A stretch of DNA of 29,941 bases, taken from positions 1 through 29,941 of the forward strand of contig JASMDC010000044.1 of NCBI GenBank assembly GCA_030753015.1, written 5' to 3'. A model generated the notes under the pieces. That model was not told the DNA's origin. It did not search any database and worked only from the letters and a program-made list of their open reading frames with translations. The stretch comes from Candidatus Undinarchaeales archaeon (GTDB lineage Archaea; SpSt-1190; JASMDC01). The position numbers and the translations under genes are program-made. This document shows positions 2,183 to 18,067 of the stretch, in pieces (within the stretch, counting starts at the first letter, position 1; every line of letters begins with the position of its first letter).

Positions 2183-4057
2183 CTATGGGCGGCCCGGACA
2201 CGGCCCGCTTTGAGAGAGCCGGAGCAGTGCCCAGCCTGGGCCCATGGCGACCCTCTCGCCGCTGAGCAAAGGCCCGAGCGGTCCAACTTCGCCTGTGTCC
2301 ACGAGGTATACCGGTCGGGCCGAGCATACGAGAGAGGTGGCAGGGGAGAGATCTATCTCGTACCGGAGGTCCGAGGCGAGTATATGTTTCCGGTAGGAGA
2401 TGGCAGTACGCCCATCCCGCGCCATCACCACTTGGATGGCACGGGGGACTATGATGACCGCGTCCCTCTCGGTCCCGCGGATCGCCTGGGAGAGGGGGAG
2501 CTCTCCAGGACGTACGTCACCGAGTATGTGCTCAGACCCTGATTCGGAGATCACGAGCCCCATTAATTTGCCAGGCGTTCCGATCGCGTGTGAAGCCACT
2601 TCTTCTATATCGGCCGGGAGCAAGGGCGGACTGGAGAGGAGAGGGACCATCGCGCTCATCCCTCGCTCACGCTCTTCCACTAAGAACTTCAACCACGGTT
2701 CGTTAGATATTTCCAGGTACCGTGAATCCATCGGTGGTCTCCACAACAACGCGAGATTTGCGAACAGCATGAGCGCGCTGGCCACCATCACGACAACGAG
2801 GAACGCGAAGTACCGTTCGCCGCGCCGGGCACAGTTGATCCCATGGGCAGCGAGCAGAAGAACCGCGGGCATCAGCGGTTGCACATACCGGTTCTTGTTA
2901 ACACTCCAGTTCTCGTTGGCGGCCAGGAGGAGGAATGTCGGGAGGATCCAGAGAACGAGCAGGACGGCCTGTTCACGGTCCCGGCGACACAGGTCAGCGA
3001 GCCCGATCAGGGCAAGGGCGGACAGTACGGTACCCAGGGAACGGAGGATGAGCAAGGGGATGAACAGCGCCACGGGTGATGGGAATCCCGGTGTCCGGAC
3101 GATACGGTCGTGGAAAGGCCAGTTCAGCAATCCCATGAACATGAAGTCGCGTCCCAGGAATCGGTGGGTGAACATGTACTTGTCCCTGCCAAAGGTGAAC
3201 CGCATCGGATCGCACAGCTCCAGCTCCTTGTAGGCGGCAGGCTCGCAGAACAGGATGCAACCCTGGATGGGGTGGATGAACACGCTCCCGCATGCCTGCT
3301 GGTATACCAGCATCCACGGGAGGGCGGTCATGAGCCCACCGATGGAGAACAGCGCCAGCCGACGCCACCGATGAGGGCCTCGGCCGTACCGCCAGACGCA
3401 GGCGGGGAGCAGCAGCACCAATGGGTTGGACATCCCTGCTACGGCCCCCAGGGCGAGGCCTGCCGCAAGGGGTTCCCCCGAAGCTCGCCTGCGGTGGAGC
3501 ACGGCGAGGAGCACCGTCGCCCCGGCAAGTGTCACGACGTTGAGCACCTGGTCGGCGAAGAGGAGCACGCCTATCGGGTCCATGAACTCCTGCGGCGGTT
3601 GCACCGCCGAGTACAGGACCACGGCGTTCAGGCTCCCGAGCGCACCGAGCACAAGAGCGGACGGCGTCCCAGCACCCGCTCCCTCGGCAGCCACGAGGAG
3701 CGCCAGGAACACAACGCCGGAAGCGAGGGCGGCGACGAGGTAAATACCGTGCGTTGCCGTGAGCGAACCCGCAGCAGCGATCACGGTGGACGCTCCGATC
3801 TCGCGCGAGTGATGGTCATTCCCAAGGTCCATGCGTCGCTCGGGTGACGGTGGATCCTGATCGTTCGGGTCCAGGTCGATCAGCCGGCCGAGCATGCCTG
3901 CGGCGGCCTCTAGCGGTTCTGGCAATCGCTGAACGTACGAGAGCTTCACGTCCAGGGCCGCGACGTACATGGCGCCAATGACCACGAGCAGCGCCACCGC
4001 CGCCAGAGTGCGGGATGTTCCTTCCACGTCCTTGATGGATGCCTCCCATGACAACAC
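2183..4057 (-). CDS. multi-pass membrane protein, probable GT-C (ArnT/PMT-like) glycosyltransferase fold
   Basis: About 11 hydrophobic segments. LAAGLALGAVAG and NRYVQPLMPAVLLLAAHG resemble the GT-C RYxxPxxP motif. The start (GTG 4057) is uncertain. Confidence 0.6.
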   Translation of the reverse strand: MLSWEASIKDVEGTSRTLAAVALLVVIGAMYVAALDVKLSYVQRLPEPLEAAAGMLGRLIDLDPNDQDPPSPERRMDLGNDHHSREIGASTVIAAAGSLTATHGIYLVAALASGVVFLALLVAAEGAGAGTPSALVLGALGSLNAVVLYSAVQPPQEFMDPIGVLLFADQVLNVVTLAGATVLLAVLHRRRASGEPLAAGLALGAVAGMSNPLVLLLPACVWRYGRGPHRWRRLALFSIGGLMTALPWMLVYQQACGSVFIHPIQGCILFCEPAAYKELELCDPMRFTFGRDKYMFTHRFLGRDFMFMGLLNWPFHDRIVRTPGFPSPVALFIPLLILRSLGTVLSALALIGLADLCRRDREQAVLLVLWILPTFLLLAANENWSVNKNRYVQPLMPAVLLLAAHGINCARRGERYFAFLVVVMVASALMLFANLALLWRPPMDSRYLEISNEPWLKFLVEERERGMSAMVPLLSSPPLLPADIEEVASHAIGTPGKLMGLVISESGSEHILGDVRPGELPLSQAIRGTERDAVIIVPRAIQVVMARDGRTAISYRKHILASDLRYEIDLSPATSLVCSARPVYLVDTGEVGPLGPLLSGERVAMGPGWALLRLSQSGPCPGRP

Positions 4058-4700: not shown

Positions 4701-5647
4701 CCCGGGACGACGAGAACGATCGCCCCGAGAAGGCTGCGGAGGCCCTCGAGTCGCTCAGTGCACGAAAACTCTCCCGTCGCGCCATGGTGCGAGCGTTCCT
4801 CCTGGGTGGACTGGGTGCCCTGGGGGTTTGGCACATGAGCCGGCCGGGCGAACTGCCACTGGACGTCGTGCGACGCGCGACACGGGACATGCCGTCCTGC
4901 AAGGTAACGGCCGAAGGGGTTCGGGAGTGGACCTCGCAGGAAGAGCTTATCGCTGGGCTCAGGAAGGGGCTCGACGGGATAGGTGGTATCCGTTCTATCG
5001 TCCCCAACGGCTCGACGGTCTTCATCAAGCCCAACCTCGTCCGCCACGACAACCAGTTCGATCCTCGGGTGGTCCCGGCCCTGGTCCAGCTCATCGAGGA
5101 GGCGGGGGCCGAGCGCGTGTTCGTGGGGGACAACGCACCGGCGCCTACGCGCTACACGGCGGACAGTATCGGCCTTCTGCGCCATCTACGCCAGACCGAC
5201 GCCGAGTTCGTAGAGGTGGAGCGCGGTACGTTCTCCATGGTGGATATCCCACATGGTGTGGCCGTCAAGGAAGCCCCCATGCCCAACCAGATGCTCGATG
5301 CGGACGTGCTTGTGAACGTGGCGTTCTTCAAGAAGCACCCTCACTACAAGGTGAATTATAGCCTCGCCCTCAAGAACCTCATGGGACTGGTCAGGTTCCA
5401 GGACATCGTCCACCTCGTCCATCCCGTGCTCGAGGACGGTATCTCTGACCTCGTATCGACGTTGACGCCCCAGCTGAATATCGTCGATATGCTCGGGACG
5501 CCCGCAAAAACAGTCGTCATGGGCACCCACCCCGCCGTGGTCGACCGAGTGGCCATGGACCTCTATGGGGAGAAGGACATACCCATCTATCTCCAGCGCG
5601 CGTTCGCGCGTTTCTCCGAGGTGCTCGCAGAATGCGACGGATCGTGA
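4697..5647 (+). CDS. DUF362 domain protein with Tat signal
   Basis: ATGA overlap with the upstream stop. LSRRAMV...LLGGLGALG Tat peptide. VFIKPNLV, DADVLVNV..FKKH and SLALKNLMG are DUF362 motifs. Confidence 0.85.
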   Translation: MTRDDENDRPEKAAEALESLSARKLSRRAMVRAFLLGGLGALGVWHMSRPGELPLDVVRRATRDMPSCKVTAEGVREWTSQEELIAGLRKGLDGIGGIRSIVPNGSTVFIKPNLVRHDNQFDPRVVPALVQLIEEAGAERVFVGDNAPAPTRYTADSIGLLRHLRQTDAEFVEVERGTFSMVDIPHGVAVKEAPMPNQMLDADVLVNVAFFKKHPHYKVNYSLALKNLMGLVRFQDIVHLVHPVLEDGISDLVSTLTPQLNIVDMLGTPAKTVVMGTHPAVVDRVAMDLYGEKDIPIYLQRAFARFSEVLAECDGS

Positions 5648-7431
5648 ACGGACAGCCCGCCACTTTCCTGTTGCTCGCCATCCTCCTCGCGGGCTGTTCC
5701 TCTACACCTCAGCCCTCCGGAGCCGATCCCACGGCCACCGCCACAATCGTTCCCTCACCGACGTCACTCCCCTCCCCCCGAGCATGGAAATGCGAGGGGC
5801 TCAGCTCTGGCGTGGACCGCTCCATATGCCTCCTCGCCATGGCCAGGTCACGTGCCCACACGGGTGGCACGTGGGCCGTTAGCCTGTGCGAGGCGCTAAC
5901 CATCGAACCCTTCCGCAAGGAGTGCGTCGATCAGGTGCTCCCCGCCACCCCGCCCTGGAGCGCTCCCGTTCTCCAGCGGCTGTGCGCGCTCGACGAGTCC
6001 CGAGAGGGATGTACTGCGCTGGCAGAGGCCAGGGCGACCGGGGACCCGTCCCGATGCCCGTCCCTGGACACGCATATCGGCAGGGGTTGTGTGATGACCG
6101 TGGCAAGGGAACTGGCGATGGCGGGCGACCAGCGAGCGGGCGCAGCGTGCACCGTGTTCGAGGATCCCTTCTTCGTCGCCCGTTGCGCACGAGCCGCGGC
6201 TCGTGCCGCTGTACCGGACCACCCTGAACTGGCCCGGCAGGTCTGTGCCCCGGTCCTCGATGCAATCTTTCACTTCCACTGCATTCAAGGGGCCGCGCTG
6301 CTCGCAGGCTCGACCGACGCGGTACAAGCACTGTGCGACGACGTCAATTTCACAGTCTCGCACACCAGATGTCTCATAGACGCTCTCGCTCGCACGCGGC
6401 TGGCAATCCACACGAACGTGAGCATCCCCGTGTGCCGCTTGTCACCGGAGTGGGAGTCGAAGTGCACCGCTGACGTCGCCACCCGGGTAGCCGTCGAGGA
6501 CCACGACCCGGTCGCTGACCTGTGCGCCGGGCTGGAGGATGGCGCGGACTGCGCAGTGGCCGTCGTACGGGTCATCGGCCGCACCGACCTCGAGGCCGCC
6601 ACGGCCCTGTGCGACCGCTTCGCCACGGGGACCTTCGTCCATGACAACTGTATCGCTGCTGCTGTCTCATCGTCCCCCTGCACCGATCCCGCGTTATGCG
6701 CGGACGCGTGCGCTGGTGCATCCACGCCAGTCGAGCGTGACGGCTGCCTGCTCTCCATCATGGTCCGGGTCGAGCCGAACGCATGGCAGGACGTCTGCAA
6801 AAGGGCCGAATCGGAGGTGACACGGCAGGTGTGCACGGCGGCATCCGGAGTGGTGGCGGGCGATGATGGCGCGACCACCTGCGGCGGCCTCCCGGACCGA
6901 AGGGACCGGGAGGCGTGCTTCGGGATCATCGTACCGAACATCGCTCCCGACGGCCTCGCACTTCTGGCGGACGCTTGTGCTGCATTGGACCCTCCCTCCC
7001 CCGCGTGCCTAACGGCCATTGCCACCGAGAGAGCGCGCCGCCGCTTGCCCGAACCCGCCGCCCCCTGCCTCTCGCTCCAGGAGACCGCTGCCCGGGACTC
7101 CTGCCTCCTCGAATCGTTCGCCGAGACCATCGGTCACGATGTCACTGCAGCGCGTGCGATGTGCGATCTGTGCGGTGACGGACCGGAGCACGACATGTGC
7201 ATGGCCGCGGCCGTAGCTGCCGACCTAGCTCCCGAGGCCCTGCCCGTGGCCCTGGACGTCTGCGATGGCCTCGAGCTCTCGGAAGAAACGGACAGCTGCA
7301 GGTTCGGGGTGGCGCGCGCTCTTGCTGCCAACGATCCCGTGATGGCGGCCGAGGTGTGCGAGCACGTCATCAGTGTGTTCTGGCGGGACAAGTGCTCCAC
7401 GGTCGCCGCGGACCATCGAGAGAGTGACTGA
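5644..7431 (+). CDS. Cys-rich repeat lipoprotein (about 18 C-x8-12-C helical repeats)
   Basis: Lipobox LLAGC, then a P/T/S linker, then repeats such as ALCDRFATGTFVHDNCIAAAV and DVCDGLELSEETDSCRFGVA. Start is GTG 5644 (GTGA overlap) or ATG 5632. Confidence 0.8.
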   Translation: MNGQPATFLLLAILLAGCSSTPQPSGADPTATATIVPSPTSLPSPRAWKCEGLSSGVDRSICLLAMARSRAHTGGTWAVSLCEALTIEPFRKECVDQVLPATPPWSAPVLQRLCALDESREGCTALAEARATGDPSRCPSLDTHIGRGCVMTVARELAMAGDQRAGAACTVFEDPFFVARCARAAARAAVPDHPELARQVCAPVLDAIFHFHCIQGAALLAGSTDAVQALCDDVNFTVSHTRCLIDALARTRLAIHTNVSIPVCRLSPEWESKCTADVATRVAVEDHDPVADLCAGLEDGADCAVAVVRVIGRTDLEAATALCDRFATGTFVHDNCIAAAVSSSPCTDPALCADACAGASTPVERDGCLLSIMVRVEPNAWQDVCKRAESEVTRQVCTAASGVVAGDDGATTCGGLPDRRDREACFGIIVPNIAPDGLALLADACAALDPPSPACLTAIATERARRRLPEPAAPCLSLQETAARDSCLLESFAETIGHDVTAARAMCDLCGDGPEHDMCMAAAVAADLAPEALPVALDVCDGLELSEETDSCRFGVARALAANDPVMAAEVCEHVISVFWRDKCSTVAADHRESD

Positions 7432-7444
7432 GAATAAGAGTGGA

Positions 7445-7519
7445 TGGGGCCGCCCGGATTTGAACCGGGGTCGCGGGCTCCCAAAGCCCGAAGGATGGAC
7501 CAAACTACCCAACGGCCCC
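7445..7519 (-). tRNA. tRNA-Pro (anticodon TGG)
   Basis: GGGGCCG acceptor stem; anticodon arm CGGGC-TT-TGG-GA-GCCCG; T-arm CCCGG-TTCAAAT-CCGGG; discriminator A at 7445. CCA is not encoded in register. Confidence 0.97.
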
Positions 7520-7525
7520 AAAGAT

Positions 7526-7632
7526 TGGTAGCCCCGCCCGGAATCCCGCGCCCCGTCAAATCTGGCGGGACGGTTCGAACCAGGGTCAGCGGCTCCAAAG
7601 GCCGCCATGATTGGCCGCTACACCACGGGGCT
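7526..7632 (-). tRNA. tRNA-Gln (anticodon TTG) with a 31-nt intron at position 59/60 (7543-7573); CCA encoded
   Basis: AGCCCCG/CGGGGCT acceptor stem (A1-T72, typical of archaeal Gln). Anticodon arm GCGGC-CT-TTG-GA-GCCGC. T-stem CCTGG/CCGGG. The T-loop TTCGAA^T is interrupted by an insert that forms a BHB motif. Confidence 0.95.
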
Positions 7633-7654: not shown

Positions 7655-7662
7655 TATTTAAA
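7655..7662. promoter_or_regulatory. TATA box shared by the tRNA-Gln/Pro pair (-) and nfeD (+)
   Basis: TATTTAAA (TTTAAATA on -) lies 23 nt from the tRNA-Gln 5' end and 26 nt from ATG 7688. Confidence 0.65.
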
Positions 7663-7687: not shown

Positions 7688-8353
7688 ATGGGAAGGATGC
7701 ATTTTGTACTTCTTTTGTGTATTCTGTTCGCCCCCGCCATTGCTGTGGACTGTTCTGTGCTCACCGGCCAGGACGCTTGCCGTGATGCGCGGTGCGTGTG
7801 GGTGAACAATACCTGCGCTACGTGCAACGACCTGACCGAGAGCGGGTGCACTCTCGCCAGTGACGCCTGCACGTGGGACAAGGGCGCATGCACGCCCCAA
7901 CCCCCCTTGGACGCCACCCTTACATGGGTGATCCTTGGAGCAGTGTTCCTGGTACTGGAGATCTTCACACCGGGGATCTTCTTCATCCTGTTCGGGGTGT
8001 CGTCGTTCATCGTGGCGGCAGCCGTGGGTATCGGCTTGATCAGCGGCACTGCCCTTGGCGTACAGACACTTGTATTCCTACTGACCTCTATCGTGCTCCT
8101 CGCTTTCGTGCGACCCATGTTCAACGTCGTCACTGTTGACACTGGCGAGCGCTTTGGTGTAGAGGCCTTCGTGGGGAAGGTGGGCACCGTCACCGAGGAT
8201 ATCGAGCCCGAGGGTGACAAGGGAAAGGTAAAGGTAACAGGAGAGGAGTGGCGGGCCGATGCCGACATGCCCCTGGAGAAGGGGACCAAGGTCGAAGTCA
8301 TCGAGCTGAAGTCCAACACCCTCATCGTGAAGGTATATGAAAAGGAGGAATGA
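7688..8353 (+). CDS. nfeD: NfeD-like (YbbJ-type) membrane protein with a signal peptide and an extra N-terminal Cys-rich domain
   Basis: WVILGAVFLVLEIFTPGIFF TM motif and C-terminal OB-fold VGKVGTVTE...GKVKVTGEEWRA. Lies directly upstream of an SPFH gene. Start is ATG 7688 or 7697. Confidence 0.88.
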   Translation: MGRMHFVLLLCILFAPAIAVDCSVLTGQDACRDARCVWVNNTCATCNDLTESGCTLASDACTWDKGACTPQPPLDATLTWVILGAVFLVLEIFTPGIFFILFGVSSFIVAAAVGIGLISGTALGVQTLVFLLTSIVLLAFVRPMFNVVTVDTGERFGVEAFVGKVGTVTEDIEPEGDKGKVKVTGEEWRADADMPLEKGTKVEVIELKSNTLIVKVYEKEE

Positions 8354-10139: not shown

Positions 10140-11501
10140 TTAGTCCTCTTTCTCGATATGTGCCAGCATCGCCCTCAACTTGGGCGACACCCTGACGCTC
10201 TGCCCGCTCTCGAGGACGGTCTTCAGGTCCTTGGCCATGACGATCAGCTCGCGCTTCAGCTGGCGAGGATCCTCGAACTTTGGCTCCAGCTTGTAGTAGT
10301 GCTCGGCTGTGCGCTGAACGATGTCCTCCAGAAGGCAGAGGTTGTCCATGTACCCGTGATAGGCCATGAGCTCAGGATCCATGGCGATGCGCAGCCCGTC
10401 GGTGAGGTCGTCCAGGTCCGCACCGGCCTGCTCCAGTGCTGCACGGTCGTCTTCCTTTATCGCCTTGGCCATGTTTACGATGATCGTGTCCCGGAGGTGG
10501 GCGAACTGCATCAGGTTGGTGGGGGCCATTATGTAGTCCAGCTGTGCGTAGTAGGCCCCCAGTGCTATGAGCATGGGAGCTATCATGGACACGCGGTCCT
10601 GGACTGCCCCCCATTTCGAGGTCGACTCGGCGGTGAGGGGGATGAGCACTGCAGTCAGTAGGACGACCACCACGGCACCGAGCGCGCCACCATCAGCGAG
10701 CACGTAGAACTGCTTCCGGGCGTATTTGTACAGGAGCCATGATGCCAGAATACAGACCGCGATGATCGTGAGGCCGTTGTCGTGCACGGTGACGGGGATG
10801 AGGAGCCCGATCAGAGCGAGGATGTTCCATATGCCCCGATAGACTATGAAGAGGATGAACGAGAGTGTGAGCATCTCGGCGGGAGGGTCGTACACGGAGG
10901 GGACCGAGGCCTGGAGGACCCATCCCATGGCCAGGAACGCGACTACGTAGTACGCGCTCACGAGCCAGCCCAGCCAGCCCCCTGGCGCTCCCGTGCCCGT
11001 GCGCACCTCGATTGCGACGGCAAGGACGAGCAGGCTGAGCACAACGGCAGCTCCGCGGGTATCGAGCAGCGGTGTTTCCCGGGGCGTCACCTCGATCGGG
11101 TAGGTGACCACCTCCTCGGCCCGCTGATCGGCCGTGACATAATTGGGTCCGTCCTCGAACAGCTGCACACCTCGGTAGTAAAGGGATTTCTTTCCCTGGA
11201 AGGCGATGCGCAGCACGTGCTGACCCTCCCCACTCCCCTCGTGGCACGTGGCGGGCTCCTCCCTCCAGCCCCGGAAGTACCGTACCTCCTCCTCTGACCA
11301 GAGGAGCTTGTCCGGGAGCTTGTCGGAGGGGAACCAGAGCGTGATATCGCCGTAACGCTCCTCCACGTACGCCGTCCTCCCCCGGTAGCTTATGATGTTC
11401 CAGATCCAGCCGGACATATCGTCCTTGGGATTGTTGGTTACACTGACCTTTCCCGAAAGGAGGTCGAACGCGTCCTTCCCGATCCGTCCGTGTTCACGCA
11501 T
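10140..11501 (-). CDS. hypothetical membrane protein (soluble N-domain, about 6 TM, helical C-domain), paralog 2
   Basis: 453-aa ORF with SD GAGGAG. Shares LYxxGVQLFExGxNYxTA, FYxLxDGG, DLxDGLRIAxDP, YMDNL and RVSPxL with its neighbour. Confidence 0.85.
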   Translation of the reverse strand: MREHGRIGKDAFDLLSGKVSVTNNPKDDMSGWIWNIISYRGRTAYVEERYGDITLWFPSDKLPDKLLWSEEEVRYFRGWREEPATCHEGSGEGQHVLRIAFQGKKSLYYRGVQLFEDGPNYVTADQRAEEVVTYPIEVTPRETPLLDTRGAAVVLSLLVLAVAIEVRTGTGAPGGWLGWLVSAYYVVAFLAMGWVLQASVPSVYDPPAEMLTLSFILFIVYRGIWNILALIGLLIPVTVHDNGLTIIAVCILASWLLYKYARKQFYVLADGGALGAVVVVLLTAVLIPLTAESTSKWGAVQDRVSMIAPMLIALGAYYAQLDYIMAPTNLMQFAHLRDTIIVNMAKAIKEDDRAALEQAGADLDDLTDGLRIAMDPELMAYHGYMDNLCLLEDIVQRTAEHYYKLEPKFEDPRQLKRELIVMAKDLKTVLESGQSVRVSPKLRAMLAHIEKED

Positions 11502-11516: not shown

Positions 11517-12929
11517 TCAGTCCGCTTCAGTGTCCGCGTGCTCCACAAGGCCCCGCAGGATCGGGGACACCCGGATGCACATGCCCTGCTCCATGGCGTA
11601 GCGCAGGTCGTGGGTCATGATCTGGATCTCGCGAGCGAGGTCGGCGGGATCGTCGAAGTCCCGCTCGAGCCGGTCGTACTGCTCGGCCGCGCCCTTCACG
11701 ACGTTCTCGAGCAGGCGGAGGTTGTCCATGTAATTACGGAACGCGGCCAGGTTGGGGTCCTTTGCGATGCGCAGGCCGTCGGCCAGGTCGTTGAGCTCCT
11801 CGCCCGCCTCCCGCAGCGCCTCCCGGTCGCCGCTGCTGACCGTCCGGTCCATGAGCGTCGCGATCTCGTCGCGGAGCCGGAAGAACTGTTTTTCCGTGTC
11901 GGGCGCCTTGCGGTAGTCCTTCCACTTGTAATAAGCGCCGACGACGATGATGAAGGGCGCGAGCATGGATATGGTGTTCAGCGCCTCGTGCCACCACTCG
12001 AGGTCCTCCTCGATGGCGACGTTCCAGATGAAGGCGAGTATCAGGACGAGCAGCGCTCCTGCGGAACCGCCGTCGGTGAGCATGTAGAAGCGCTTGCGGA
12101 TAATGCGGAACATGAGGAACGAGAGCACAATCGATGCTGCGATGAGCGAGAACCCGAAGTGCTCGATGGGCAATAGGAACTCCTTACTGAGCGCAGAGAA
12201 TATGTTCTCCACGCCCTTGAAACCTATATAGAGCACGAACGAGCAGGCGAGGATCTCGGCGGGGATGTCGTAGTCGGTGGGGGTGCCTGCGATGAGCACG
12301 TAACCCATGGACACGAAGCACATCATGTACCACAAGGCCACCAGCACTTGTGTCCATCCGGGAAGCGCTCCCGCTCCTGCCTGGAGCTCGAGCCAGAGGG
12401 CGACAAGGGCGATCCCCAGTATCATGAGCGCGCCCCATGTCCCCACGAGCACCGCCTTCCGGGCCAGCACCTCGATAGTGTAGTGGTCCAGGTCCTCGGC
12501 GCGGGCATGGGCGGTGGCGTAGTTCTCCCCGTGCTCGAACAGCTGCACTCCTGTGAAGTAGAGGGGCTTGCGGTCGGGGAACACGATGCGGAGAACGTCC
12601 TCGCCGTCCCCCTCCCCCTCCGAGCAAGCGGCGGTGCCATCCTCCTCCCCGCCGGTCCTCATCTTCCGTGGATCCCAGAGGCCCTCCAGACGGCCGGAGA
12701 GGTCACGCACTGCCTCCTCGCGCCATGCGACGTGGGCAGGCAATCGTTCGACCGGGGTCCAGACGGTCAGCTCGCCTTTGTACTCCTCGACGAACACCGT
12801 CTTCCGGTCCCACTCGATAGCGGTCCAGCCCCAGCTCTCTTGGTCCTCTCCTTCCCCCTCGGTCAGGGTGATGGAACCGTCGGGGACGATTGTGTACCGT
12901 TTCCGATTGATCTGACCCTGTTCATTCAC
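11517..12929 (-). CDS. hypothetical membrane protein (about 6 TM), paralog 1, 470 aa
   Basis: GTG 12929 overlaps the udp stop (GTGA). The N-terminus VNEQGQINRKRY aligns with paralog 2 MREHGRIGKDAF, and the motifs are the same. Confidence 0.85.
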   Translation of the reverse strand: MNEQGQINRKRYTIVPDGSITLTEGEGEDQESWGWTAIEWDRKTVFVEEYKGELTVWTPVERLPAHVAWREEAVRDLSGRLEGLWDPRKMRTGGEEDGTAACSEGEGDGEDVLRIVFPDRKPLYFTGVQLFEHGENYATAHARAEDLDHYTIEVLARKAVLVGTWGALMILGIALVALWLELQAGAGALPGWTQVLVALWYMMCFVSMGYVLIAGTPTDYDIPAEILACSFVLYIGFKGVENIFSALSKEFLLPIEHFGFSLIAASIVLSFLMFRIIRKRFYMLTDGGSAGALLVLILAFIWNVAIEEDLEWWHEALNTISMLAPFIIVVGAYYKWKDYRKAPDTEKQFFRLRDEIATLMDRTVSSGDREALREAGEELNDLADGLRIAKDPNLAAFRNYMDNLRLLENVVKGAAEQYDRLERDFDDPADLAREIQIMTHDLRYAMEQGMCIRVSPILRGLVEHADTEAD

Positions 12930-13762
12930 GTCCGAAGCCCCGGGTACCAGTACCTCTTCCCGCTCTTCTCCTTCTCGTCGTCCATCTCCTTGAGGATGCG
13001 CACGGCCTCCACGGCCACCTTCGCGCACTCCTTTTCGCCCGTGACCTTCAGTTCGTCGCGAGGACGGTTGGCGAACACGGTGCACACGCAGCCTGCACGC
13101 AGCCCGAAGAGGCTTGTGAGGGTGTAGAGCGCGGCGGCCTCCATCTCGAAGTTGAGCACGCGGGCCTTCTGGAGATCAACGACCAGGTTGTCCATCCAGC
13201 TCTGCCAGAACCCGTTGTACCCGGGCCTTCCCTGGCCGCAGTAGAAGGTGTTCGTGGACGCCGTGATCCCCACATGGTAGGGGATGTTCAGGCATTCTGC
13301 GGCCTGGATGAGGGCCAGTGTCACCTCGTACGACCCGACGGCGGGGTACTCTGGCCGCACGTAGTCCTTGCTCGTCCCCTCGAGACGGACCGCAGCCGAA
13401 GTGATGATCATGTCACCGATGTCGATGTCCTCCTGGATGGTCGCCGTGGAGCCCACGCGGATGAACGTGTCCACACCGACAGCTGCCAGTTCCTCGATGG
13501 CCACGCCCAGGGGGCTGGGGCCCAGACCCGACGATACGGTAGAGACGGGGATGCCCTTGAACTTGCCGGTGAAGGTGCGGTACTCGCGGTGGTAGGCCAC
13601 TTCACGCGCCTCGTCGAAGAGCTCGGCGATGACCGGTACCCGCCCGGGGTCCCCGGGAAAGAGTACGTACCGCGCGACGTCGCCCGGTTTGCACTGGATA
13701 TGATACTGGATGCCCTCCTCGGTCTGCGGCCGGGTGGCCTCCTTCATCTTGAGCGTGCCCAT
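12926..13762 (-). CDS. udp: uridine phosphorylase (NP-I family)
   Basis: Motifs QYHIQCKPGDVARYVLFPGDPGRV, HREYRTFTG, FIRVGST, FYCGQGR and NFEMEAA. Start ATG 13762 lies about 25 nt from TTTTATAAA (alternative start 13747). Confidence 0.92.
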   Translation of the reverse strand: MGTLKMKEATRPQTEEGIQYHIQCKPGDVARYVLFPGDPGRVPVIAELFDEAREVAYHREYRTFTGKFKGIPVSTVSSGLGPSPLGVAIEELAAVGVDTFIRVGSTATIQEDIDIGDMIITSAAVRLEGTSKDYVRPEYPAVGSYEVTLALIQAAECLNIPYHVGITASTNTFYCGQGRPGYNGFWQSWMDNLVVDLQKARVLNFEMEAAALYTLTSLFGLRAGCVCTVFANRPRDELKVTGEKECAKVAVEAVRILKEMDDEKEKSGKRYWYPGLRT

Positions 13763-17211: not shown

Positions 17212-18067
17212 CGACGTTGCCTGGCTGGAGGAGCGGGACCTGGGCTCCGACCTCACGCGGGCGGAGATCATGGAGCTGTTCGGATTCGATCCGTCCAAGC
17301 GCTACGTGGTGCGCCTGGCCGACCGGTGGTCCGACATCGCCTTCCTGCACGAGCAGGGAGTGGTGCAGCTGCGGGAGAAGGGCGAGCCCCAGGGGACATA
17401 CTATCTCTCCCCCGAGGACCTGCGGGTGCGCAACGAGCCCAAGCTCTATGGCGCGGTGTTCTCGTCCCTCTCGGACCAGTACCGAACCATCGCCAGCGCG
17501 TTCTCCATCGCCCAGCGGATCGCTGAGAGCCTGGGGCATGCCATCTCTCTCAAGGACTTCCTCAACCTTGTCACCCTCCTTGAAAAGGAGGTGACACTCA
17601 AGCAGGCGGCCGTGCACGTCCCCGGCCACGGGACGGTCACTGAGACCGAGCGGCGGACCATGTTCGCCGAGCTCAAGCGCCTGCGCTACCAGATCCTCGA
17701 GCGGATCTACGAGGTGCGGCACGCGAGGGAGGACTTCGACCACGCCATGGAGCGACTTGGTGAGGGCGACGACATCCACTTCGCTGCAGAGCTGCAGCGC
17801 ACGAACCTCATGCGCATGGAGCGTGCCGAGCGCGAGCTCGAGCAGTCCATCAAGGAGTACAACACGATGGACGAGACCCTCTTCACCCAGGAGGGGGCGT
17901 TCATCATGGACCCTGCCGGTGAGGACATCGTGGTCGAGGTGTACCGCATGCCCGAGAAGGTGCCGGAACAGAAGGACATGCCCCCGCCCAAGCCTGTGCA
18001 GAACACGCCTGTCCCGACCATGGAGCGCCACCGGCCCCTGTCGCTCGAAGCGCAGCCGCCGACATAG
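17192..18067 (+). CDS. hypothetical protein coupled to smc (possible winged helix plus coiled coil); start uncertain (ATT 17192 or ATG 17270)
   Basis: The frame is open from 17186 with host-like codons (DDVAWLEERDLGSDLTRAEI) before the first ATG. SD-like GGGGGTGA lies 6 nt before ATT 17192. No ScpA DPWxID motif. Confidence 0.8.
   Translation: MPTQSSDDVAWLEERDLGSDLTRAEIMELFGFDPSKRYVVRLADRWSDIAFLHEQGVVQLREKGEPQGTYYLSPEDLRVRNEPKLYGAVFSSLSDQYRTIASAFSIAQRIAESLGHAISLKDFLNLVTLLEKEVTLKQAAVHVPGHGTVTETERRTMFAELKRLRYQILERIYEVRHAREDFDHAMERLGEGDDIHFAAELQRTNLMRMERAERELEQSIKEYNTMDETLFTQEGAFIMDPAGEDIVVEVYRMPEKVPEQKDMPPPKPVQNTPVPTMERHRPLSLEAQPPT
18011..18061 (+). repeat. 51-bp direct repeat, copy 1 (3' end of the post-smc gene; attL-like)
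   Basis: GTCCCGACCATGGAGCGCCACCGGCCCCTGTCGCTCGAAGCGCAGCCGCCG is 48/51 identical to 19183-19233. Confidence 0.95.

What the first reader, a model, noticed from the sequence alone, without database searches (positions are those of the whole stretch)
7543..7573. Non-canonical T-loop (59/60) intron with a complete BHB motif in tRNA-Gln(TTG)
Seen on the minus strand: CCTGG-[TTCG]-AA^C-CGTCCCG-ccagatttga-CGGGGCG-[CGGG]-AT^T-CCGGG. The T-stem is the outer helix, TTCG/CGGG is the 4-bp central helix (two G-U pairs), AAC and ATT are the 3-nt bulges, and a 7-bp intron helix closes it. Cutting after the second bulge base on each side removes 31 nt and restores the T-loop TTCGAAT. Established: most archaeal introns lie at 37/38, and non-canonical positions are known mainly from Thermoproteales and some DPANN. 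Inference: this host, whose gene set (SMC, porGDAB) does not look like Thermoproteales, splices T-loop introns. Standard pipelines may miss or mis-call this tRNA.
Basis: partly seen in the sequence, partly recalled or inferred. Interest (0 to 1): 0.75.

Follow-up and report, generated by a model that had tools for sequence, protein, structure and literature searches.

The report
T-loop intron in archaeal tRNA-Gln gene
This is a real archaeal glutamine tRNA gene interrupted in its T-loop by a 31-base intron with a textbook splicing motif, a known kind of intron that is unusually common in this marine archaeon.

Summary
On the minus strand, 7632..7526 encodes tRNA-Gln(UUG). It is interrupted at 59/60 by a 31-nt intron (7573..7543) closed by a strict hBHBh' motif: 5-bp T-stem, 4-bp helix, two 3-nt bulges, 7-bp intron helix. 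Removing those 31 nt in silico gives a clean tRNA-Gln. ARAGORN and the Rfam tRNA model both miss the unspliced gene.

It is the only Gln(UUG) gene found in a 98.9%-complete genome. It is 107/107 identical in a congeneric genome whose flanks are about 78-95% identical.

The same genome has 59/60 introns in Leu(CAA), Leu(CAG) and Ser(UGA), and probably Leu(UAA). In the congener these keep their helices through pair-preserving changes.

The genome has one single-unit EndA with a basic loop matching the Nanoarchaeum alpha subunit (the published "L3" loop), and it has RtcB. The nearest named record is a "Candidatus Undinarchaeota" MAG.

Introns at 59/60 are already published, for example in ARMAN-2. 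This is therefore a new member of a known kind. No spliced RNA could be shown.

The parts
7655..7662 (-). TATA-like box TTTAAATA, centred about 26 nt upstream of tRNA position 1
   Evidence: Read. The block around it is identical in the congener G001, while the bases between it and the tRNA differ. Its promoter function is inferred.
7574..7632 (-). Exon 1 of tRNA-Gln(UUG): positions 1-59, ending TTCGAA of the T-loop
   Evidence: The Rfam tRNA model matches only this part (7561-7625, model 8-63, 18.7 bits against a cut-off of 29).
7543..7573 (-). 31-nt intron at 59/60. It holds the third base of bulge 1, the 7-bp hairpin with a 10-nt loop, the H' strand CGGG, and two bases of bulge 2.
   Evidence: It is 31/31 identical in G001.
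7576..7584 (-). Exon-supplied half of the BHB: T-stem 5' strand (7584..7580, outer helix h) and T54-G57 (7579..7576, 5' strand of the central 4-bp helix)
7526..7542 (-). Exon 2: T60, T-stem 3' strand, acceptor 3' strand, discriminator A (7529) and encoded CCA (7528..7526)
7445..7519 (-). tRNA-Pro(UGG), 6 nt downstream of the Gln CCA. It is probably co-transcribed.
   Evidence: ARAGORN and Rfam at 52.9 bits. The anticodon-stem pair C31-G39 becomes G31.U39 in G001. One RNA-library contig spans 7428-7578.

Best explanation
The gene at 7632..7526 (minus strand) is the organism's only tRNA-Gln(UUG) gene. It carries a 31-nt protein-spliced archaeal intron between T-loop positions 59 and 60.

Likely pathway (inferred):
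1. Transcription starts from the TATA-like box at 7662..7655, probably together with the downstream tRNA-Pro.
2. In the precursor, the T-stem acts as the outer helix. T54-G57 pair with CGGG near the intron's 3' end to form the 4-bp central helix. A58-A59 plus the first intron base form one 3-nt bulge. The last two intron bases plus T60 form the other.
3. The single-unit splicing endonuclease EndA (contig C31, 193 aa) cuts after the second base of each bulge.
4. RtcB (contig C23) joins the exons, restoring TTCGAAT, and circularises the intron.

Position 59/60 lies between the 6th and 7th base of a 7-nt loop closed by a 5-bp stem. That is the same geometry as the canonical 37/38 site in the anticodon arm. 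The enzyme therefore sees the same motif, and the tRNA itself supplies half of it.

Shown here: the motif, the restored tRNA, the lack of a second gene copy, conservation, sister introns, and the presence of EndA and RtcB.
Inferred: transcription, cleavage and ligation.
For: - Exact hBHBh' geometry, and a clean tRNA-Gln only after removing 7573..7543.
- Shuffled introns rarely give the motif: 17 of 200,000 for the full motif.
- It is the only Gln(UUG) found. ARAGORN and Rfam over the genome find Gln(CUG) on C52 and no other UUG copy. The C36 call is a false positive.
- In the congener G001 the 107-nt precursor is 100% identical, while 100-column blocks outside the tRNAs are 78-95% identical. 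By my arithmetic, at 85% neutral identity 31 unchanged bases have p of about 0.007.
- Four more 59/60 cases occur in the same genome: Leu(CAA) 23 nt, Ser(UGA) 32 nt, Leu(CAG) 33 nt, and probably Leu(UAA) 39 nt. All five are present in G001.
- Pairing is kept through change between the two genomes. In the Leu(CAA) intron helix, A-U becomes G-C on both sides. G.U becomes A-U in Ser(UGA) and Leu(CAG).
- The Leu(CAA) local MFE is exactly the 3-4-3 BHB.
- EndA (PF01974 and PF02778) and RtcB (586 bits) are present.
- The pattern GGTTCRAA...YGRRNNTCC matches 7 times in G000 and 7 in G001, against 1 control match each.
Against: - No spliced junction or circular intron was seen. The only RNA-library evidence is one 151-nt contig (depth 2) that carries the intron unspliced. 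It could be precursor RNA or contaminating DNA.
- The precursor is no more stable than shuffles (z = -0.69).
- The central helix has two G.U pairs, and thermodynamic folding forms only its inner two pairs.
- The Gln intron itself shows no covariation, because the only close relative is identical.
- The genome is a MAG with 5% estimated contamination.
Confidence: 0.9

Rival explanations
1. It is an inactivated tRNA-Gln pseudogene, disrupted by a 31-bp insertion that only happens to look like a BHB.
For: No spliced RNA was seen. ARAGORN and Rfam do not call it a tRNA.
Against: No other Gln(UUG) gene exists in a 98.9%-complete genome. Exons and insert are 100% identical in a congener whose flanks have diverged by 5-22%. 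The TATA block is conserved. The full motif arises in 17 of 200,000 shuffles. Three to four other tRNAs, all the only gene found for their anticodon, are built the same way.
Confidence: 0.04
2. The insert is removed or tolerated by a route other than EndA and RtcB. For example, the enlarged T-loop could be kept in the mature tRNA, or processing could be by another nuclease.
For: Nothing direct. The central helix is weak, with two G.U pairs.
Against: The geometry is exactly what archaeal EndA needs. ARMAN-2 EndA has been shown in vitro to cut a 59/60 intron (PMC3239211, passages). EndA and RtcB are both encoded. An extra 31 nt in the T-loop would break the conserved T-loop/D-loop contact (established tRNA knowledge).
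Confidence: 0.04
3. It is an assembly or binning artefact: a chimeric contig or a foreign gene in the bin.
For: It is a MAG with 117 contigs and 5% contamination.
Against: The same arrangement, with the same neighbours, is found in a second genome of the genus. Ten runs hold all of the sampled words and an eleventh holds 0.98. One contig covers 7200-7900 with no differences, although some of these runs may be the source of the assembly.
Confidence: 0.02

Closest known systems
[quoted passage not shown] Fujishima et al. 2011, PMC3239211 (passages read).
   Same: The position is the same (59/60), the host is DPANN-labelled, and a BHB is used at the exon-intron boundary. ARMAN-2 Pro(GGG) is described as strict hBHBh'. 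Cleavage of a 59/60 intron by EndA was shown in vitro.
   Different: The tRNAs differ: Gln, Leu and Ser here. ARMAN-2 Cys has a relaxed hBH motif, whereas four of the five here are strict or nearly so. The ARMAN-2 enzyme is the three-unit epsilon2 type. Here a single 193-aa unit is the only EndA found.
Non-canonical tRNA introns of Thermoproteales and other Crenarchaeota (reviews PMC4090602 and PMC4033280, passages)
   Same: They are BHB-bounded introns at non-canonical sites, and 59/60 is listed among the known positions. The site is 'transplantable' because the enzyme reads the motif and not the tRNA body.
   Different: Those hosts have heterotetrameric (alpha-beta)2 EndA with the Crenarchaea-specific loop. 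They often have several introns per gene, and families of introns with similar sequence. Here each gene has one intron, the intron sequences are mostly unlike each other, and no beta subunit was found.
alpha4-type EndA carrying the 'L3' (Nanoarchaea/ARMAN-2-specific) loop, reported in several DPANN lineages and Hadesarchaea. Kaneta et al. 2018, PMC5829648 (passages).
   Same: It is a single-unit EndA. A basic insertion between the RVYE motif and the conserved EH aligns without gaps to the N. equitans alpha subunit (3iey_A), and M. jannaschii 1a79 has a 6-residue gap there. It is associated with more disrupted tRNA genes.
   Different: The oligomeric state and substrate range of this protein are untested. 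The same loop is present in class relatives in which I found no T-loop intron, so the loop alone does not explain the expansion.
Canonical 37/38 archaeal tRNA intron
   Same: The motif and register are the same: a 5-bp stem as outer helix, the first four loop bases as the central helix strand, and a cut between the 6th and 7th loop base.
   Different: It sits in the T-arm instead of the anticodon arm.

Membership tests
Archaeal protein-spliced tRNA intron with strict hBHBh' motif | Two 3-nt bulges on opposite strands separated by a 4-bp helix | tested here: met
   AAC and ATT bulges flank TTCG/CGGG (two G.U pairs)..
Archaeal protein-spliced tRNA intron with strict hBHBh' motif | Flanking helices h and h' on both sides of the bulges | tested here: met
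   h is the 5-bp T-stem. h' is 7 bp (6 Watson-Crick pairs and 1 G.U)..
Archaeal protein-spliced tRNA intron with strict hBHBh' motif | Excision at the bulges restores a canonical cloverleaf tRNA | tested here: met
   ARAGORN calls tRNA-Gln(ttg), 76 nt, only after removal of 7573..7543.
Archaeal protein-spliced tRNA intron with strict hBHBh' motif | The host encodes the splicing endonuclease and an RNA ligase | tested here: met
   EndA at 100.8 bits to PF01974. RtcB at 586 bits to PF01139.
Archaeal protein-spliced tRNA intron with strict hBHBh' motif | The spliced product and excised intron exist as RNA | tested here: inconclusive
   Only Logan contigs were available. One RNA-library contig (7428-7578, depth 2) carries the intron, and no joints were seen.
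Non-canonical intron class at position 59/60 | The intron lies between T-loop nucleotides 59 and 60 | tested here: met
   Exon 1 ends TTCGAA and exon 2 starts with T followed by the T-stem 3' strand. A shift of one base changes the mature sequence.
alpha4-type EndA with L3 loop | A single polypeptide with one N-terminal and one catalytic C-terminal EndA domain | tested here: met
   193 aa. PF02778 covers residues 19-82 and PF01974 covers 93-185. The best solved match is M. jannaschii 1a79.
alpha4-type EndA with L3 loop | No second (beta or structural) subunit gene | tested here: met
   Only the one locus is hit by PF01974, PF02778, NF007085, NF007086 and by phmmer of EndA against all six-frame ORFs of 60 aa or more. 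Caveat: a very divergent beta subunit could escape, and the genome is a draft.
alpha4-type EndA with L3 loop | A basic insertion in the C-terminal domain like that of the N. equitans alpha subunit | tested here: met
   The segment is gapless against 3iey_A, and 1a79 has a 6-residue gap against it. It is conserved in 9 of 10 related EndAs aligned, the exception being a Hadarchaeota-labelled one.
alpha4-type EndA with L3 loop | Homotetramer with broadened substrate range | not testable with these tools
   This needs purified protein.

The most novel reading that the evidence does not exclude
Position 59/60 may be a recurrent, recently active intron-gain site in DPANN-labelled archaea, and this genus may have undergone a burst of gains: 4-5 of about 45 tRNA genes.

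The site would be favoured because the T-arm is a geometric twin of the anticodon arm. In addition, TTCGAA is its own reverse complement, so a second copy of the T-loop placed downstream can pair with the first.

One case looks like a fossil of such an origin. The Leu(UAA) 'intron' on contig C44 begins with a decayed copy of the tRNA's own 3' end (T-stem 3' strand, acceptor 3' strand and discriminator). It ends with CGAA plus 2 nt, just before the true 3' end. This is what a duplication of the gene's 3' third would leave, for example after integration and excision at a tRNA att site.

If this is right, T-loop introns could arise from tRNA 3'-end duplications that EndA then happens to be able to remove.
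Probability: 0.2. Interest if true: 0.55.

Novelty: new member of a known kind. Interest (0 to 1): 0.3.

Why it matters
For annotation, at least four tRNAs of this organism are invisible to ARAGORN and to the Rfam tRNA model: Gln-UUG, Leu-CAA, Leu-CAG and Ser-UGA. The genome would therefore look unable to read CAA, UUG, CUG and UCA/UCG-type codons.

For biology, it adds a marine lineage with a large genome (3.6-3.9 Mb), labelled Undinarchaeota, to the hosts of T-loop introns. It pairs strict-motif 59/60 introns with a single-unit, L3-loop EndA.

Comparison with relatives gives clean presence/absence contrasts at orthologous loci (this genus against its class; G031 against G041/G042). These could be used to study how archaeal tRNA introns are gained or lost.

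It does not change the known mechanism.

Tried and rejected
- RNA evidence. One search for runs and one lay of two RNA and two DNA runs gave no joint across the intron. RNA run X18 covers only 7702-7900. RNA run X19 has one 151-nt contig, 7428-7578, with the intron in place. The data are contigs only, so splicing is neither supported nor refuted.
- Whole-precursor stability against shuffles is not significant.
- The ARAGORN -i genome scan gave many implausible calls with introns of hundreds to thousands of nt. These include a second 'Gln(ttg)' on C36, rejected, and an 'Ile(gat)' in the window at 17462-17635. I did not accept the latter, because a good Ile(GAU) lies on C27.
- My strict-geometry BHB scan recovered only 1 of the 7 anticodon-loop introns (C22). 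It missed Leu(CAG) and Leu(UAA), so it under-counts relaxed motifs. Those two came from a pattern search.
- Ala(UGC) was not found by any route. I did not look further. From recalled knowledge, it often lies in the rRNA operon, which MAGs tend to lack.
- Census in the class. The 25 pattern matches in the 15 other genomes are at control level (27 for the reversed pattern). Of the 24 with loci, none gave a tRNA after splicing except an alternative reading of an intact tRNA-Pro (L101). The pattern requires GG before the T-loop and TCC after the intron, so other T-stems would be missed.
- Loci L021, L026 and L027 gave no uninterrupted Gln gene and no 59/60 intron. ARAGORN -i calls a 37/38-type intron in L023 and L026. 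These were left unresolved.
- Literature. A search for Undinarchaeota + tRNA + intron found 8 papers, 5 of them listed, and none is on this subject by title or abstract start. The 2026 Asgard tRNA-intron preprint has no hit for '59 60', T-loop, DPANN or hotspot. I could not run tRNAscan-SE or SPLITS.

Full report
**What is there.**

Read on the minus strand, 7632..7526 is a tRNA-Gln(UUG) gene. It has a 7-bp acceptor stem, D-arm, anticodon loop CTTTGGA, a 4-nt variable region and T-stem CCTGG/CCGGG. Its T-loop is split after TTCGAA by 31 nt (7573..7543), and the final T of the loop (7542) follows.

T54-G57 (TTCG) pair with CGGG (7548..7545) as T.G, T.G, C-G, G-C. AAC and ATT are the two 3-nt bulges. 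CGTCCCG/CGGGGCG is a 7-bp helix (one G.U) closing a 10-nt loop. The order along the strand is h-H-B-h'-loop-h'-H'-B-h, the same as in a canonical 37/38 precursor.

A script that removed exactly 7573..7543 from window.fa gave a sequence that ARAGORN calls tRNA-Gln(ttg): 76 nt with encoded CCA and a T-loop of TTCGAAT. The unspliced 107 nt gave nothing.

The standard scans miss the gene. ARAGORN on the window finds only the neighbouring tRNA-Pro. Rfam at gathering threshold does likewise. A whole-genome Rfam tRNA search gives only a partial, sub-threshold match (7561-7625, model 8-63, 18.7 bits against 29).

**More than chance.**

With the exons fixed, 200,000 shuffles of the intron gave a minimal BHB in 744 cases and the full 7-bp version in 17.

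Against this, the whole precursor is no more stable than dinucleotide shuffles (z = -0.69). Free folding forms the T-stem, the intron hairpin and only the two inner pairs of the central helix. The enforced BHB is 1 kcal/mol above the local MFE. This shortfall is not surprising, given that two of the four central pairs are G.U and the structure carries two bulges.

**Is it the working gene?**

The window is contig C56 of a 3.85-Mb, 117-contig genome with 60% G+C, 98.9% complete and 5% contaminated.
- ARAGORN and Rfam find Gln(CUG) on C52 and no other Gln(UUG).
- BLAST of the precursor against the genome hits only itself, Gln(CUG) and a tRNA-Glu.
- ARAGORN's intron mode proposes a Gln(ttg) on C36. 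It has a mismatched 1-72 pair, a rudimentary D-arm and a 68-nt 'intron' in the anticodon stem. It lies antisense inside a 2102-aa ORF. I reject it.

In the one congeneric genome (G001), the 107-nt precursor is 100% identical. Surrounding 100-column blocks are 78-95% identical. The TATA-like block TTTAAATA (7662..7655, about 26 nt upstream of position 1) is conserved, while the bases between it and the tRNA are not.

tRNA-Pro(UGG) follows 6 nt after the Gln CCA. Between the two genomes it shows a pair-preserving double change, C31-G39 to G31.U39.

**Sister introns in the same genome.**

I scanned the genome for BHB geometries, spliced each candidate in silico and ran ARAGORN on the result.
- The strict scan gave 28,409 candidates and 7 tRNA calls across the junction. 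Two were new genes, Gln(UUG) and Leu(CAA). The other five were alternative readings of intact Arg, His (two) and Thr genes, and a doubtful SeC call.
- The relaxed scan gave 148,136 candidates and 19 calls. It added Ser(UGA) and Ile(GAU).
- A pattern search (GGTTCRAA, 13-43 nt, YGRRNNTCC) added Leu(CAG) and Leu(UAA).

| tRNA | Contig and intron coordinates | Length | Position | Motif |
|---|---|---|---|---|
| Gln(UUG) | C56 7543-7573 (-) | 31 nt | 59/60 | strict 3-4-3 |
| Leu(CAA) | C23 79500-79522 (-) | 23 nt | 59/60 | strict; the free MFE is exactly the BHB |
| Ser(UGA) | C49 26955-26986 (+) | 32 nt | 59/60 | strict |
| Leu(CAG) | C49 31913-31945 (+) | 33 nt | 59/60 | near-strict; one-base slip next to the 5' bulge |
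| Leu(UAA) | C44 12903-12941 (+) | 39 nt | 59/60 (probable) | relaxed; internal loop in place of a clean 5' bulge |
| Ile(GAU) | C27 59824-59855 (-) | 32 nt | anticodon stem, about 30/31 by my count | found by the relaxed scan |

In all five T-loop cases the tRNA supplies the outer helix (T-stem), the 5' strand of the central helix (T54-R57) and two bulge bases (58, 59).

Leu(UAA) needs a note. ARAGORN and Rfam call it unspliced, but with the lowest Rfam score of the 40 tRNAs over the cut-off (37.9 bits). The spliced reading has a perfect T-arm, a perfect acceptor stem and CCA.

Overall tally:
- I count about 45 tRNA genes.
- About 7 of them have anticodon-loop introns.
- Only Ala(UGC) is still missing.

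**Comparative support.**

G001 has all five 59/60 introns at the same sites. Where the sequences differ, pairing is kept:
- Leu(CAA) intron helix: A-U becomes G-C, changed on both sides.
- Ser(UGA): G.U becomes A-U.
- Leu(CAG): G.U becomes A-U.
- Leu(UAA) inner hairpin: two one-sided changes.
- The H' strands are unchanged.

That is only two genomes, so it is modest evidence, but every change goes the right way.

**Distribution.**

The class holds 17 genomes. The 15 outside this genus are 0.6-1.2 Mb.
- Gln(UUG) is uninterrupted in 9 of those 15. Two more gave only Gln(CUG).
- Leu(CAA) is uninterrupted in the 4 where it was found.
- The T-loop-intron pattern matches 7 times in G000 and 7 in G001, with 1 control match each. 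In the other 15 genomes it matches 25 times against 27 control matches. None of the 24 loci examined gave a real intron.

The expansion therefore appears specific to this genus within its class.

Elsewhere, an unrelated small genome (G031) has a 33-nt 59/60 intron in Gln(UUG) with a different sequence. Its two congeners (G041, G042) have the same 5' exon, 100% identical, at the syntenic locus without the intron. G049 has a 20-nt 59/60 intron in Gln(CUG). Of the 25 loci from G031's relatives, 13 hold an uninterrupted Gln(UUG), 9 an uninterrupted Gln(CUG), 2 the 59/60-interrupted genes just named, and 1 nothing. The site is thus used repeatedly and sporadically.

**The enzymes.**

One EndA gene is found (C31, 193 aa from a GTG start, with the N-terminal and catalytic domains). 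No second hit comes from PF01974, PF02778, two NCBIfam beta-subunit models, or phmmer against all ORFs of 60 aa or more.

The best solved relative is the M. jannaschii homotetramer (1a79). Compared with it, this protein has six extra residues in a basic stretch between the RVYE motif and the conserved EH. That stretch aligns without gaps to the N. equitans alpha subunit (3iey_A) and, with one gap, to the ARMAN-2 enzyme.

This corresponds to the 'L3' loop that Kaneta et al. 2018 report in alpha4-type EndAs of several DPANN lineages and associate with more disrupted tRNA genes (PMC5829648, passages). The same loop is present in 9 of 10 related EndAs aligned, including class relatives without T-loop introns. 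It is therefore a lineage trait and not the cause of the expansion.

RtcB is present.

**Host.**

The nearest named record (95% EndA identity) is a MAG titled 'Candidatus Undinarchaeota archaeon'. The next are labelled Undinarchaeota, Altiarchaeota, unnamed archaea, Micrarchaeum and Hadarchaeota. The DNA occurs in marine, seawater and hydrothermal-vent metagenomes from 12 studies.

Neighbouring genes are ordinary: NfeD and SPFH, a phosphorylase, SMC, a U32 peptidase, CTP synthase and POR subunits. Several ORFs have no Pfam match.

**What is known.**

- 59/60 is listed among known non-canonical positions (PMC4090602, passages).
- ARMAN-2 has 59/60 introns in tRNA-Cys and tRNA-Pro, and its EndA cuts one in vitro (PMC3239211, passages).
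- The literature ties non-canonical introns to (alpha-beta)2 and epsilon2 enzymes or to specific loops (PMC6379350 and PMC5829648, passages).
- tRNAscan-SE 2.0 searches such introns by default (PMC8450103, passages).
- I found no paper on tRNA introns in Undinarchaeota.

**Verdict.**

This is a real, well-formed T-loop intron in an essential tRNA gene. It is one of four or five in this genus and is most likely removed by a single-unit L3-loop EndA and RtcB. It is a new member of a known kind, useful for annotation and as comparative material on intron gain, but not a new mechanism. Splicing itself remains to be shown.

Noticed in passing
G000 contig C44:12832-12958 (locus L121); G001 C18 (L119): tRNA-Leu(UAA) is called intact by ARAGORN and Rfam (lowest score, 37.9 bits). 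Removing 12903-12941 gives a perfect T-arm, acceptor stem and CCA. The 39-nt 'intron' starts with a decayed copy of the tRNA's own 3' end; in G001, a 4-mer and a 9-mer are identical to exon 2. It ends CGAA plus 2 nt before the true 3' end. It looks like a duplication of the gene's 3' third.
   Followed up: partly
G000 C23:79500-79522, C49:26955-26986, C49:31913-31945: Leu(CAA), Ser(UGA) and Leu(CAG) each carry a 59/60 intron of 23, 32 and 33 nt. They are missed by plain ARAGORN and by the Rfam tRNA model at its cut-off. Leu(CAG) is followed 4-5 nt later by tRNA-Val(CAC).
   Followed up: yes
G000 C27:59781-59887: tRNA-Ile(GAU) has a 32-nt intron in the 5' strand of the anticodon stem (about 30/31). 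ARAGORN -i mis-called it Thr(cgt). Its hairpin core (CGGGG-4 nt-CCCCCG) resembles that of the Ser(UGA) intron.
   Followed up: partly
G000 C22:36877-36978: An intron-containing tRNA with anticodon TAT (Ile-UAU) is present, and only two CAT tRNAs were seen. This suggests AUA is read by Ile(UAU) and not by a modified CAU tRNA.
   Followed up: no
G000 C61:13761-13793 (locus L046): An orphan T-arm plus acceptor 3' strand (a tRNA 3'-half look-alike) with a T-run after it and no matching 5' half nearby. It could be an att-site remnant or a split-gene half.
   Followed up: no
whole genome G000 and G001 against their class: This genus has 3.6-3.9-Mb genomes at 60% G+C. The other 15 genomes of its class are 0.6-1.2 Mb. 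The nearest named records are labelled Undinarchaeota. The size contrast is striking for a DPANN-labelled lineage. Contamination is estimated at 5%.
   Followed up: no
L062 (G031) against L063/L064 (G042/G041): An orthologous, syntenic tRNA-Gln(UUG) locus has a 33-nt 59/60 intron in one species and none in two congeners. The 5' exon is identical in all three. G049 has a 20-nt 59/60 intron in Gln(CUG) (L077).
   Followed up: partly
window 7445-7519 (-): tRNA-Pro(UGG) shows a pair-preserving double change in its anticodon stem between G000 and G001 (C31-G39 against G31.U39). It does not encode CCA, while the adjacent tRNA-Gln does.
   Followed up: partly
G000 C36:28958-35263 (+): An open frame of 2102 aa, extremely rich in cysteine with repeated C-x-x-C-like spacing and an acidic E-rich stretch. 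It was seen while rejecting a false tRNA call.
   Followed up: no
L001:1962-3131 (-), next to EndA on G000 C31: A 389-aa ORF beside EndA with a C-terminal CxxC...CxxC cluster. It looks like a transposon-associated TnpB/OrfB-type protein. It was not scanned against any family library.
   Followed up: no
window 2183-4054, 5632-7428, 10140-11498, 11517-13082: Four long ORFs (452-623 aa) have no Pfam match at E of 1e-5 or better.
   Followed up: no
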